Assembly: GCF_009914755.1 (NCBI RefSeq)
Contig: NC_060930.1
DNA: 64,000 nt
Direction: 5' to 3' (one strand)
Source of the DNA: the human T2T-CHM13v2.0 reference genome, Homo sapiens
Made by a program: the position numbers and the translations under genes. Position 1 is the stretch's first letter, and each line of letters begins with the position of its first letter. Below the pieces are notes generated by a model. The model was not told where the DNA came from, did not search any database, and saw only the letters and a program-made list of their open reading frames with translations. Shown here in pieces: positions 32,467 through 35,400 of this stretch.

Positions 32467-32900
32467 TGTCAGGCCTCTGAGCCCAAGCCAAGCCATCACA
32501 TCCCCTGTGACTTGCACCTATACGCCCAGATGGCCTGAAGTAACTGAAGAATCACAAAAGAAGTGAAAAGGCCCTGCCCCGCCTTAACTGATGACATTCC
32601 ACCACTGTGATTTGTTCCTGCCCCACCTTAACTGAGTGATTAACCCTGTGAATTTCCTTCTCCTGGCTCAGAAGCTCCCCCACTGAGCACCTTGTGACCC
32701 CCACCCCTGCCCACCAGAGAAAAACCCCCTTTGACTATAATTTTCCATTACCTTCCCAAATCCTATAAAACGGCCCCACCCCTATCTCCCTTCACTGACT
32801 CTCTTTTCGGACTCAGCCTGCCTGCACCCAGGTGAAATAAACAGCCATGTTGCTCACACAAAGCCTGTTTGGTCGTCTCTTCACATGGACGCGCATGAAA
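32467..32900 (+). promoter_or_regulatory. HERV-H 5' LTR (LTR7 family, LTR7Y-like); TATA box at ~32764
   Basis: 'tgtcaggcctctgagcccaagcc...gcgcatgaaa', 434 bp. The 'tgtgatttgttcctgccccacc' repeat type matches my recollection of LTR7Y. Confidence 0.9.
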
Positions 32901-33475
32901 TTTGGTGCCGTGACTCGGATTGGGGGACCTCCCTTGGGAGATCAATCCCCTGTCCTCCTGCTCTTTGCTCCATGAGAAAGATCCACCTACAACCTCAGGT
33001 CCTCAGACTGACCAGCCCAAGAAACATCTCAACAATTTCAAATCCAGTAAGTGGCCTCTGTTTACTCTCTTCTCCAACCTCCCTCACTATCCCTCAACTT
33101 CTTTCTCCTTTCAATCTTGGTGCCACACTTCAATCTCTCCCTTCTCTTAATTTCAATTCCTTTCATTTTCTGGTAGAGACAAAGGAGACACGTTTTCTCC
33201 GTGGACCCAAAACTCCGGCGCCAGTCACGGACTGGGAAGGCAGCCTTCCCTTGGTGTTTAATCATTGCAGGGACACCTCTCTGATTATTCACCCACGTTG
33301 CAAAGGTGTCAGACCACGCAGGGACACCTGCCTTGGTCCTTCACCCTTAGCGGCAAGTCCCGCTTTTCTGGGGAAGGGGCAAGTACCTCAACCCCTTCTC
33401 TCCTTGTCTCTACCCCTTCTCTGCTTTTCTGGGGGAGGGGCAAGTACCCCTCAACCCCTTCTCCTTCACCCTTAG
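32885..33475 (+). CDS. Candidate 196-aa HERV-H leader ORF, ESRG-like (translation unproven)
   Basis: Open frame 'MDAHEIWCRDSDWGTSLGRSIPCPPALCS...ASTPQPLLLHP'. The ATG is present only in the 5' LTR (the 3' LTR has ACG). Similarity to ESRG is from memory. Confidence 0.3.
   Translation: MDAHEIWCRDSDWGTSLGRSIPCPPALCSMRKIHLQPQVLRLTSPRNISTISNPVSGLCLLSSPTSLTIPQLLSPFNLGATLQSLPSLNFNSFHFLVETKETRFLRGPKTPAPVTDWEGSLPLVFNHCRDTSLIIHPRCKGVRPRRDTCLGPSPLAASPAFLGKGQVPQPLLSLSLPLLCFSGGGASTPQPLLLHP
32903..32920 (+). other. Primer binding site, tRNA-His
   Basis: TGGTGCCGTGACTCGGAT immediately 3' of the 5' LTR. Confidence 0.95.
33044..33052 (+). promoter_or_regulatory. HERV-H major splice donor (CCA|GTAAGT)
   Basis: Located ~145 nt after the 5' LTR, at the known HERV-H donor position; GT at 33047-33048. 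Confidence 0.7.
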
Positions 33476-33851
33476 CGGCAAGTCCCGCTTTTCTGGGGGA
33501 GGGGCAAGTACCCCTCAACCCCTTCTCCTTCACACTTAGTGGCAAGTCCCTCTTTTCTAGGGGGCAAGAACCCCCAATCCCTTATTTCTGCACCCCAACC
33601 TCTTATCTCTGTGCCCCAATCCCTTATTTCTGCACCCCAACCTCTTATCTCTGTGCCCCAATTCCTTATTTCCATGCCCCAACCCTTTCTCTGCTTTTCT
33701 GGAGGGCAAGAACCCCCAACCCCTTCTCCGTGTCTCTACTCTTTTCTCTGGGCTTGCCTCCTTCACTATGGGCAAGCTTCCACCTTCCATTCCTCCTTCT
33801 TCTCCCTTAGCCTATATTCTTAAGAACTTAAAACCTCTTCAACTCTCACCT

Positions 33852-35400
33852 TGAGAGGTGACAGCGTGCTGGCAGTCCTCAGAGCCCTCGCTTGCTCTTG
33901 GCACCTCCTCTGCCTGGGCTCCCACTTTGGTGGCATTTGAGGAGCCCTTCAGCCCACCACTGCACTGTGGGAGCCCCTTTCTGGGCTGGCCAAGGCTGGA
34001 GCCCACTCTCTCAGCTTGCAGGGAGGTGTGGAGGGAGAGGCGCGAGCAGGAACCGGGGCTGCATACGGCGCTTGCGGGCCAGCTGGAGTTCCGGGTGGGC
34101 GTGGGCTTGGCAGGCCCCACACTCGGAGCAGTCGGCCAGCCCTGCTGGCCCCGGGCAATGAGGGACTTAGCACCCGGGCCAGCAGCTGCGGAGGGTGTAC
34201 TGGGTCCCCCAGCAGTGCCAGCCCACCAGTGCTGAGCTCGATTTCTCACCGAGCCTTAGCTGCCTTCCCGCGGGGCAGGCCTCGGGACCTGCAGCCCGCC
34301 ATGCCTGAGCCTTCCCCTGCCTCCGTGGGTTCCTGTGCAGCCCGAGCCTCCCCAGTGAGCGCTGCCCCCTGCTCCACGGTGCCCAGTCCCATCAACCGCC
34401 CAAGGGCTGAGGAGTGCGAGTGCATGGCGCAGGACTGGCAGGCAGCTCCACCTGCAGCCCTAGTGCGGGATCCACTGGGTGAAGCCAGCTGGGCTCCTGA
34501 GTCTGGTGGGGATGTGGAGAGTCTTTATGTCTAGCTCAAGGTTTGTAAACACACCAGTCAGCACCCTGTGTCTAGCTCTGGGTCTGTGAGTGCACCAATC
34601 CACACTCTCTATCTAGCTACTCTGGTGGGACCTTGGAGAACCTTTATGACTAGCTCAGGGATTGTAAATACACCAATCGGCACTCTGTATCTAGCTCAAG
34701 GTTTGTAAACACACCAATCAGCACCCTGTGTTTAGCTCAAGGTTTGTGAGTGCACCAATGGACACTCTGTATCTAGCTGCTCTGGTGGGGCCTTGGAGAA
34801 CCTGTATGTCAAAACTCTGTATCTAACTAATCTGACCGGGACGTGGAGAACCTTCGTATCTAGCTCAGGGATTGTAAACACACCAATCAACACCCTGTCA
34901 AAACAGGCCACTCAGCTCTACCAATCAGCAGGATTTGGGTGGGGCCAGATAAAAGAATAAAAGCAGGCTGCCCGAGCCAGCATTGGCAACCCGCTCGGGT
35001 CCCCTTCCACACTGTGGAAGCTTTGTTCTTTCGCTCTTTGCAATAAATCTTGCTGCTGCTCACTCTTTGGGTCCACACTGCTTTTTTGAGCTGTAACACT
35101 CACCGCGAAAGTCTGCAGCTTCACTCCTGAAGTCAGCGAGACCACGAGCCCACTGGGAAGAACGAACAACTCCAGACGCCCCGCCTTAAGAACTGTAACA
35201 CTCACCGCGAAGGTCTGCAGCTTCACTCCTGAGCCAGCGAGACCAAGAACCCACCAAAAGGAAGAAACTCCGAACACATCCAAACATCAGAAGGAACAAA
35301 CTCCAGATGCGCCACCTTAAGAGCTGTAACACTTACCGTGAGGGTCCGCGGCTTCATTCTTGAAGTCAATGAGACCAAGAACCCACCAATTCCGGACACA
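33852..35400 (+). mobile_element. Solo LTR12C (ERV9 LTR) nested in HERV-H
   Basis: 'tgagaggtgacagcgtgctggcag...ccaattccggacaca', 1549 bp, TSD ACCT (33848-33851 / 35401-35404), CpG-rich U3, ~41-bp enhancer repeats, tandem U5 repeats. Confidence 0.96.
34530..35047 (+). promoter_or_regulatory. LTR12C enhancer/promoter: six CCAAT boxes, TATA-like AATAAA at 34956, poly(A) signal at 35042
   Basis: CCAAT at 34595, 34673, 34714, 34755, 34883 and 34921; GATA motifs (TATCT) within the repeats. Confidence 0.8.

What the first reader, a model, noticed from the sequence alone, without database searches (positions are those of the whole stretch)
32467..35070. Candidate de novo gene built from two nested retroviruses: LTR7Y promoter, newly gained ATG, 196-aa ESRG-like ORF, LTR12C poly(A) site
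Seen in sequence: the 5' LTR reads 'cacATGg' at 32885 while the 3' LTR reads 'cacACGg'. LTRs are identical at integration, so the ATG most parsimoniously arose afterwards by CpG deamination. It opens an uninterrupted 196-codon ORF ~120 nt downstream of the LTR TATA box. The nested LTR12C provides AATAAA at 35042, which would give a ~2.3-kb unspliced transcript. Recalled knowledge (to verify): the HERV-H-derived ESRG/HESRG predicted protein uses the same frame ('DAHEIWCRDSD...ASTPQPLLLHP') but starts further upstream, at a position that reads CTG here. Inference: independent start-codon gain in the same latent frame. Caveats: the Kozak context is moderate (+4 G, -3 C), and an out-of-frame ATG at 32847 opens an overlapping ~42-codon uORF.
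Basis: partly seen in the sequence, partly recalled or inferred. Interest (0 to 1): 0.8.

Follow-up and report, generated by a model that had tools for sequence, protein, structure and literature searches.

The report
Ordinary HERV-H provirus with ESRG-like ORF
The start codon and 196-codon reading frame are real, but the same mutation has arisen independently in about a third of human HERV-H copies, so this locus is an ordinary decaying retrovirus and not a convincing new gene.

Summary
The element is a 7.3-kb HERV-H provirus (32467-39782). Its 434-bp LTRs differ at 7 sites. The 5' LTR reads ATG at 32885 and the 3' LTR reads ACG at 39767. The ATG opens a 196-codon ORF that is 82% identical to ESRG_HUMAN in the same frame. 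A 1,549-bp solo LTR is nested at 33852-35400 and carries AATAAA at 35042.

The ATG did arise after integration: all 11 published LTR7 subfamily consensuses read ACG. But the gain is not special:
- Genome-wide, 99 of 329 HERV-H 5' LTR-primer-site junctions read ATG here.
- 18 of those 99 open at least 196 codons.
- In 12 of 13 other such proviruses tested, the 3' LTR lacks the ATG, so these gains are independent.
- The frame is just as often open in copies without the ATG.
- Substitutions among paralogues show no codon-position bias.
- An out-of-frame upstream ATG precedes the start.
- I found no locus-specific evidence of transcription or translation.

The best reading is a neutral by-product of CpG decay on an ancestrally open leader frame. 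In T2T-CHM13, ESRG's own annotated start codon reads CTG.

The parts
32462..32466 (.). 5' copy of the 5-bp target-site duplication ATTGC of the HERV-H provirus
   Evidence: Read. The same 5 nt follow the 3' LTR at 39783-39787.
32467..32900 (+). 5' LTR, 434 bp. RepeatMasker label LTR7Y; LTR7u2 in Carter et al. 2022.
   Evidence: Direct repeat with 39349-39782. Listed at hg38 chr6:124890407-124890840, also 434 bp, with a matching start of sequence.
32764..32770 (+). TATAAAA box of the 5' LTR
   Evidence: Read. It lies 121 nt upstream of the ATG. The start site about 25-30 nt downstream is inferred.
32836..32841 (+). The LTR's own AATAAA (end of R). Transcripts that begin in the 5' LTR must read through it.
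   Evidence: The read-through is inferred from general retroviral LTR organisation.
32847..32975 (+). Upstream out-of-frame ATG opening a 42-codon ORF that overlaps the main ATG
   Evidence: It is present in both LTRs and in 43 of 99 ATG-bearing copies.
32885..33475 (+). 196-codon ORF in the ESRG frame. The ATG was created by a C-to-T change at 32886.
   Evidence: No Pfam family matched.
32903..32920 (+). Primer-binding site for tRNA-His
   Evidence: Identical to the PBS-tRNA-His primer printed in PMC3253121, compared.
33047..33052 (+). GTAAGT splice-donor-like site inside the ORF, after codon 54
   Evidence: Read. Its use at this locus was not tested.
33337..33693 (+). Tandem repeat arrays of the leader (64-nt and 42/21-nt units). 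The ORF stops inside the 64-nt array.
33769..33771 (+). gag-start-like ATG. It is in frame +2 relative to the ORF.
33852..35400 (+). Nested solo LTR, 1,549 bp, TG..CA ends, sense orientation, flanked by ACCT at 33848-33851 and 35401-35404.
   Evidence: The empty site is seen at the ESRG paralogue. It has 41-nt tandem repeats and seven CCAAT motifs. The family name was not tested.
35042..35047 (+). AATAAA in the nested LTR, the candidate poly(A) signal
   Evidence: A second AATAAA lies at 34956. Use of either was not tested.
35401..39348 (+). Remainder of the HERV-H internal region, with heavily broken genes
   Evidence: The longest stop-to-stop run is 136 codons.
39349..39782 (+). 3' LTR. It reads ACG at 39767-39769.

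Best explanation
This is a young, defective HERV-H provirus. It is annotated LTR7Y by RepeatMasker and LTR7u2 by Carter et al., and was later interrupted by a sense-oriented solo LTR.

The leader of HERV-H carries one reading frame that was already largely free of stop codons in the ancestral element. A methylated CpG in U5 of the 5' LTR deaminated after integration (ACG to ATG). That put an AUG at the head of the frame.

The same event has happened independently in many HERV-H copies. The 196-codon ORF is a neutral by-product of CpG decay. It is not a selected coding gene.

If the 5' LTR fires, which published subfamily-level data place in epiblast or naive cells, the RNA is most likely a non-coding HERV-H transcript. 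Scanning ribosomes would meet the out-of-frame AUG at 32847 first.

**Shown:** the anatomy, the polarity of the mutation, its recurrence, and the lack of any coding signature.

**Inferred:** the transcription start site, poly(A) use and low translation.
For: 1. **The ATG is derived.** The 3' LTR reads ACG. All 11 published LTR7 subfamily consensuses read ACG.
2. **It is recurrent and common.**
   - The 33-mer spanning the site and the PBS, with the other CpGs allowed to decay, gives ATG 99, ACG 161 and ACA 69. That is 30% ATG.
   - Among the 57 zero-mismatch rows, 25 read ATG and 32 read ACG.
   - In Carter's alignment the counts are ACG 533, ATG 303 and ACA 178.
3. **The gains are independent.** Of 13 other proviruses with a 5' ATG, the 3' LTR reads ACG in 9, ACA in 2, ACT in 1 and ATG in 1.
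4. **The locus is not unique.** 18 of 99 ATG copies have ORFs of at least 196 codons, and 5 have exactly 196.
5. **The open frame is a family property that does not depend on the ATG.**
   - At least 196 codons are open in 18 of 99 ATG copies and 5 of 32 ACG copies (Fisher p = 1).
   - Frame +0 is open in 23 of 131 copies, against 1 and 0 of 131 for the other two frames.
6. **There is no coding signature.**
   - Differences from 130 paralogues fall 1681, 1765 and 1758 on codon positions 1, 2 and 3.
   - pN/pS is 0.71, against 0.90 and 0.79 in the shifted frames.
7. **The protein shows no known domain.** No Pfam family matched. Leu, Pro and Ser make up 41% of residues.
8. **The start is poorly placed.** The upstream out-of-frame ATG has G at -3, while the main ATG has C at -3.
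9. **There is no gene model.** RefSeq has none here (hub table).
10. **ESRG, the closest relative, gives no support.** It shows no evidence of selection (PMC8184003, passages). The function of its ORF is called unclear (PMC12228294, passages).
Against: - The frame is more open than composition predicts: 0.86% of simulations reach 196 codons. At 244 codons stop to stop, it is the longest open run in the provirus. The internal genes reach at most 136 codons. Something other than chance may have kept the frame open in the ancestral virus.
- TG outnumbers CA at this CpG: 99 to 69 (p = 0.025) and 303 to 178 (p = 1e-8). The two neighbouring CpGs are symmetric. Flanking-base context could explain this, but that is recalled and not tested.
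- The paralogue comparison cannot detect selection that acted on this locus only after the ATG arose.
- No ape orthologue, human variation, CAGE, Ribo-seq or proteomic data could be examined.
Confidence: 0.8

Rival explanations
1. **Locus-specific de novo protein-coding gene.** The LTR promoter, the new AUG, the 196-aa ORF and the nested-LTR poly(A) site together produce a functional ESRG-like protein.
For: - All four sequence elements are present and correctly ordered.
- The ATG is derived.
- The subfamily is active in epiblast and naive cells.
- A review cites ESRG as a human-specific de novo gene (PMC12051474, passage).
Against: - The ATG is present in 30% of copies, and 18 of 99 ATG copies have equally long ORFs.
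- The frame is no more often open in ATG copies than in ACG copies.
- There is no codon-position bias.
- An overlapping upstream ATG precedes the start, and a donor-like site lies inside the ORF.
- No domain was found, and RefSeq has no model here.
- In the one expression table that lists this locus, the ORF-bearing fragment scores 8.6 against 322 for ESRG.
Confidence: 0.04
2. **Vestige of an ancestral retroviral leader ORF.** The frame is open because the exogenous HERV-H ancestor used it. It could have been a pre-gag or glyco-Gag-like extension, or another leader product started at a non-AUG codon. The ATG gain would then re-head an old viral frame and would not create a gene from non-coding DNA.
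For: - Frame +0 is open for at least 196 codons in 23 of 131 copies, against 1 and 0 for the other frames. This exceeds composition-matched simulations.
- After the stop, the same frame continues through a Pro/Ser-rich repeat.
- Jern et al. [quoted passage not shown]
- I recall, but could not verify, that the Jern abstract also mentions another ORF starting inside the 5' LTR. That paper is not held.
Against: - The frame has no fixed relation to the gag start. In the 58 copies where it could be measured, the split is 22, 20 and 16.
- It stays open 43-48 codons upstream of the site, through the TATA box and into U3. That looks like a compositional effect.
- The sense strand is pyrimidine-rich (61% C+T). 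Stops number 2, 8 and 6 per ~320 codons on the sense strand, against 14-17 on the antisense strand.
- There is no third-position excess among copies.
Confidence: 0.15
3. **Translated but functionless.** The RNA is made in some cell states, and leaky scanning past the upstream AUG yields some polypeptide. This would be translational noise or a source of presented peptides, with no selected function.
For: - The AUG has G at +4.
- The upstream ATG has T at +4, so some leaky scanning is plausible by the general scanning model.
- Translation of lncRNA ORFs is widely reported (PMC6735797, passage).
Against: No data exist for this locus. The ORF-bearing fragment has a low value in the only table found. 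Reads and peptides from HERV-H paralogues are hard to assign uniquely.
Confidence: 0.15

Closest known systems
ESRG / HESRG (UniProt Q1W209, 222 aa; HERV-H locus at 3p14.3)
   Same: - Same reading frame of the HERV-H U5-PBS-leader.
- 161 of 196 residues identical by BLASTP to the ESRG-locus frame; 82% identity to ESRG_HUMAN.
- Same stop, inside the 64-nt repeat array.
- Both are driven by a HERV-H 5' LTR.
   Different: - The ESRG model starts 30 codons further upstream, on a codon that reads CTG both in the window and at the T2T-CHM13 ESRG locus. That locus has no ATG anywhere in this frame.
- The window starts at a new ATG in U5.
- ESRG's LTR is listed as LTR7 and the locus is very highly expressed, at 322. 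This locus is LTR7Y/7u2 and has no comparable evidence.
- ESRG has no nested LTR and serves as the empty site.
Other HERV-H proviruses with ATG at the same U5 site
   Same: The same C-to-T change at the same CpG, heading the same frame. There are 98 other loci. 17 of them open at least 196 codons, and 4 open exactly 196.
   Different: Private substitutions, and the nested solo LTR that could end the transcript early. Whether any of the others is expressed was not examined.
HERV-H pre-gag ORF / MLV glyco-Gag
   Same: An open frame in the long gammaretroviral leader upstream of gag. The literature describes it as rich in Pro and Ser (PMC6995185 quoting Jern 2005).
   Different: No consistent frame link to gag was found in the copies examined. 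Whether the published pre-gag frame is this one could not be checked, because Jern 2005 is not held.
Solo LTRs of the HERV9/LTR12 group supplying promoters and poly(A) sites
   Same: The nested element has TG..CA ends, a 4-bp duplication, 41-nt tandem repeats with CCAAT motifs, and a sense AATAAA.
   Different: No repeat library was available to test it.

Membership tests
HERV-H provirus | Two near-identical LTRs flanked by a short target-site duplication | tested here: met
   434-bp LTRs with 7 differences. ATTGC lies on both sides.
HERV-H provirus | tRNA-His primer-binding site just after the 5' LTR | tested here: met
   32903-32920 equals the PBS-tRNA-His primer printed in PMC3253121.
HERV-H provirus | Listed as full-length HERVH in a curated annotation | tested here: met
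   Carter et al. supplementary file 2 lists chr6 124890407-124897762, +, 'full', LTR7u2. Their alignment file names the 5' LTR LTR7Y.
LTR7Y / LTR7u2 subfamily | Subfamily assignment by a repeat library or phylogeny | tested here: met
   Taken from the published annotation and not recomputed. By eye, the LTR body matches the published 7u2 layout, while the R region (…CAGCCATGTTG…) matches the 7y/7up1 form.
ESRG-like ORF | Same frame and high identity to ESRG_HUMAN | tested here: met
   82% identity over 99% of the query. 161 of 196 residues identical to the ESRG-locus frame.
De novo protein-coding gene | The ORF-enabling mutation is derived relative to the ancestral non-coding state | tested here: met
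   ACG in the 3' LTR and in all 11 subfamily consensuses.
De novo protein-coding gene | Locus-specific transcription that includes the ORF | tested here: inconclusive
   - The only data found are table values: 8.64 for the ORF-bearing fragment and 44.5 for the part after the nested LTR. The units are not stated, and most full-length loci cluster at 40-57, which suggests shared multi-mapped reads.
- The subfamily is expressed in the epiblast.
- The supplements of a long-read hPSC paper do not list the locus.
De novo protein-coding gene | Evidence of translation (ribosome phasing, peptides) | not testable with these tools
   No such data could be reached. Literature searches on ESRG with Ribo-seq and on HERVH with ribosome profiling returned nothing on this ORF.
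De novo protein-coding gene | Signature of coding constraint | tested here: not met
   - Codon-position counts are 1681, 1765 and 1758.
- pN/pS is 0.71, against 0.90 and 0.79 in the control frames.
- This is a paralogue-level test only. Orthologues and human variation could not be tested.
   ATG in 99 of 329 5' junctions and in 303 of 1,014 LTRs.
LTR12C solo LTR | Solo-LTR structure: TG..CA ends, a target-site duplication and an empty site in a paralogue | tested here: met
   33852-35400 with ACCT duplicated. The flanks overlap by 4 nt on the ESRG locus.
LTR12C solo LTR | Match to the LTR12C model of a repeat library | not testable with these tools
   No Dfam or Repbase library was on hand. 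The hub table gives masked intervals without family names.

The most novel reading that the evidence does not exclude
CpG decay at one U5 site has independently placed an AUG at the head of the ESRG frame in about 100 HERV-H proviruses, and at least 18 of them still open 196 or more codons. ESRG itself has no AUG in this frame in T2T-CHM13. If some of these loci are translated in epiblast or naive cells, the 'ESRG protein' would really be a dispersed family of parallel-born, retrovirus-leader polypeptides. This locus, from the epiblast-specific 7u2 subfamily, would be one member.
Probability: 0.1. Interest if true: 0.55.

Novelty: new member of a known kind. Interest (0 to 1): 0.2.

Why it matters
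As a single locus it matters little. It shows how easily a long ATG-headed ORF appears in a HERV-H leader with no selection involved.

The family-level numbers are useful as a null model for claims of retrovirus-derived de novo genes, ESRG included:
- 30% of copies carry the ATG.
- 18% of those keep at least 196 codons.
- ACG copies keep the frame open at the same rate.

Any Ribo-seq or peptide signal attributed to ESRG could come from about 18 near-identical ORFs elsewhere, so locus-specific variants must be used.

Tried and rejected
- **Jern et al. 2005 (PMC1091717):** this is the paper that would say whether a 5' LTR-initiated ORF is already described in HERV-H. It is not held. I saw only what PMC6995185 quotes from it.
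- **Link between the ORF frame and gag (glyco-Gag-like idea):**
  - Of the 131 copies, 52 had no gag-start motif in the fetched 897 nt.
  - 21 had the motif without ATGGG.
  - The remaining 58 split 22, 20 and 16 across the three frames. The result is inconclusive and leans against the idea.
- **Locus-level expression:**
  - The supplements of PMC12361454 do not list the locus.
  - Table S1 of PMC12228294 lists it, but probably with multi-mapped values.
  - Carter's per-locus files give only the subfamily label.
- **3' LTR state for 20 more ATG proviruses:** The test therefore rests on 13 of the 98 other ATG copies. Ten of those 13 are long-ORF copies.
- **First pairwise-alignment script:** it failed and was rerun with local alignment.
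- **Splicing in PMC3253121:** a search of the paper for splicing, donor and exon terms found no passages.
- **ATG as a lineage marker:** rejected. The closest paralogues mix ACG and ATG, and the 3' LTRs mostly lack the ATG.
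Full report
**What is in the sequence**

The region holds a HERV-H provirus from 32467 to 39782.
- Its LTRs (32467-32900 and 39349-39782) are 434 bp each and differ at 7 positions.
- ATTGC flanks the element on both sides.
- A tRNA-His primer-binding site follows the 5' LTR at 32903-32920. 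It is identical to the PBS primer printed in PMC3253121.
- The 5' LTR reads ATG at 32885 and the 3' LTR reads ACG at 39767, inside an otherwise identical 14-mer.
- The ATG opens a 196-codon ORF that ends at 33475, inside a 64-nt tandem array.
- An out-of-frame ATG at 32847 opens a 42-codon ORF that overlaps the main start.
- A GTAAGT donor-like site lies at 33047, after codon 54.
- TATAAAA lies at 32764, and the LTR's own AATAAA at 32836.

A 1,549-bp element with TG..CA ends sits at 33852-35400 in the sense orientation. ACCT flanks it on both sides. When the two flanks are aligned to the ESRG paralogue they overlap by exactly those 4 nt, so that paralogue is an empty site. The element carries 41-nt tandem repeats, seven CCAAT motifs, and AATAAA at 34956 and 35042.

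**Identity of the locus**

Supplementary file 2 of Carter et al. 2022 (PMC8912925) lists hg38 chr6:124890407-124897762, +, 'full', as LTR7u2. Their alignment file names the 5' LTR 'LTR7Y…chr6_124890407-124890840'. That entry is 434 bp and begins with the same sequence as the window. So 'LTR7Y' is the RepeatMasker label and 7u2 is the refined one.

In passages of that paper:
- 7u2 belongs to the youngest wave of HERV-H.
- Its preimplantation expression is restricted to the pluripotent epiblast.
- It prefers naive lines and is weak in H1.
- 0% of its loci bind NANOG.

I could not test the name LTR12C for the nested LTR.

**Polarity of the change**

Five of the 7 LTR differences are CpG transitions. 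All 11 published LTR7 subfamily consensuses, including 7u2 and 7y, read ACG at this site.

**How common is it?**

I searched the window's own genome with a 33-mer spanning the site and the PBS. The other three CpGs were allowed to decay and all else was exact.
- The counts were ATG 99, ACG 161 and ACA 69, so 99 of 329 (30%) read ATG. The tool warns that its counts are lower bounds.
- Among the 57 zero-mismatch rows of a looser search, 25 read ATG and 32 read ACG.
- An exact 24-mer with ATG, which also finds 3' and solo LTRs, occurs 89 times.
- In Carter's LTR alignment, the 12-mers give ACG 533, ATG 303 and ACA 178, which is 29.9% ATG.

I fetched 8 kb downstream of 13 of the other 98 ATG proviruses. 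Ten of these were long-ORF copies. In the 13, the 3' LTR reads ACG in 9, ACA in 2, ACT in 1 and ATG in 1. The ATG is therefore a recurrent, independent, post-integration event.

**How common is the open frame?**

I fetched all 98 other ATG junctions and 32 of the 161 ACG junctions. The 32 were the zero-mismatch ones, including ESRG.
- From the ATG, the median ORF is 84 codons.
- 33 of 99 reach 100 codons, 20 reach 150, and 18 reach 196.
- Five have exactly 196 codons, and two run off the fetched 897 nt.
- In the ACG copies the same frame is open for at least 196 codons in 5 of 32 (Fisher p = 1 against 18 of 99).
- Across all 131 copies, frame +0 is open for at least 196 codons in 23. Frames +1 and +2 manage 1 and 0.
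- The commonest first stops fall at codon index 35 (34 copies) and 84 (22 copies).

The open frame is thus an inherited property of the HERV-H leader that is being eroded. It does not depend on the ATG. It does exceed composition:
- 0.86% of 5,000 first-order Markov simulations reach 196 codons.
- At 244 codons stop to stop (32741-33475), it is longer than any run in the internal genes, where the maximum is 136.
- It also extends upstream through the TATA box into U3.
- The sense strand is pyrimidine-rich and poor in stops in all three frames: 2, 8 and 6 per ~320 codons, against 14-17 on the antisense strand.

**Coding signature**

Each of the 130 paralogues was aligned pairwise to the window ORF; the median identity was 93%.
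- Differences fall 1681, 1765 and 1758 on codon positions 1, 2 and 3.
- Pooled pN/pS is 0.71, against 0.90 and 0.79 in the two shifted frames.

This is not a coding pattern. The test compares paralogues, so it cannot see selection that acted on this locus alone after the ATG arose. No Pfam family matches, and Leu, Pro and Ser make up 41% of the protein.

**Relation to ESRG**

- A database search returned ESRG_HUMAN (P0043, 222 aa) at 82% identity, among 542 hits. Most of the 120 listed hits are unnamed predicted ORFs.
- The frame at T2T chr3:54.67 Mb matches P0043 at 221 of 222 residues. Only residue 1 differs: M in the database entry against a CTG codon in the genome.
- That locus has no ATG anywhere in the frame.
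- The window also reads CTG at that codon.
- ESRG is listed as the top HERVH locus, at 322, in Table S1 of PMC12228294.
- The ESRG literature is split. A review calls the ORF's function unclear (PMC12228294). Another paper finds no evidence of selection and finds ESRG dispensable (PMC8184003). A third source calls it a de novo gene (PMC12051474).

**Expression of this locus**

The same Table S1 (hg19) splits the provirus at the nested LTR.
- chr6:125211553-125212937 is the 5' LTR plus leader, and contains the ORF. It scores 8.64 in control and 8.74 in TRIM28-knockout cells.
- chr6:125214528-125218909 scores 44.5 and 29.3 and sits in row 81.
- The units are not given. Most full-length loci cluster at 40-57, which suggests shared multi-mapped reads, so I draw no conclusion from these values.
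- The supplements of a long-read hPSC study that I searched do not list the locus.
- RefSeq has no model here (hub table).

**Verdict**

The most likely account is neutral. A methylated CpG decayed, as it did in about 100 other copies, on top of a leader frame that was already open. The RNA, if it is made in epiblast-like cells, is a HERV-H non-coding transcript, and its first AUG is the out-of-frame one at 32847.

An older viral origin for the open frame remains possible (PMC6995185 quoting Jern 2005). I found no consistent frame link to gag: the 58 measurable copies split 22, 20 and 16.

**One point stays unexplained**

TG outnumbers CA at this CpG (303 to 178, p = 1e-8), while the two neighbouring CpGs are symmetric (28 to 38 and 51 to 45). 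Flanking-base effects on CpG mutation could account for this, but that is recalled and not tested.

Noticed in passing
L139:8192-8857 (-), T2T chr3:54.67 Mb (ESRG locus): The 222-aa UniProt ESRG model matches the genome at 221 of 222 residues. Its initiator Met lies on a CTG codon in T2T-CHM13, and the frame holds no ATG at all over its 235 open codons. The canonical 'ESRG protein' therefore has no AUG start in this assembly.
   Followed up: partly
window 32885-32887 and its paralogues genome-wide: TG outnumbers CA among decayed states of this CpG: 99 to 69 in my count and 303 to 178 in Carter's alignment. The two CpGs just downstream are symmetric (28 to 38 and 51 to 45). Flanking-base context or a few inherited ATG lineages may explain this. 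It is not resolved.
   Followed up: partly
window 32741-33475 versus 35401-39348: The leader frame is open for 244 codons stop to stop and is the longest open run in the provirus. The former gag-pro-pol region has none above 136 codons.
   Followed up: partly
window 32467-33851 versus 35401-39782: In Table S1 of PMC12228294 the part of the provirus after the nested LTR scores about five times higher (44.5) than the part before it (8.64). Per kilobase that is about 10 against 6. Transcription starting in the nested LTR is one possible reading, and shared multi-mapped reads is another.
   Followed up: no
window 32836-32860 and 32869-32879, both LTRs: The LTR body follows the published 7u2 layout. 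The R region, however, carries the …CAGCCATGTTG… form, seen in the 7y and 7up1 consensuses but not in 7u2. This form supplies the upstream ATG. Both LTRs also read GGTCGTCT where all 11 consensuses read GGTGGTCT.
   Followed up: no
G000:C12:95728419 and 95734025; L148 (C7:122.88 Mb): Two proviruses carry ATG at this site in both LTRs. Either their source element already had it or the LTRs exchanged sequence. These are the exceptions to independent gain.
   Followed up: no
window 32096-32314 and 40097-40301: Two 74-76% similar direct repeats flank the provirus about 8 kb apart (families D6 and D7). They look like unrelated copies of a common short interspersed repeat and not part of the element.
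   Followed up: no
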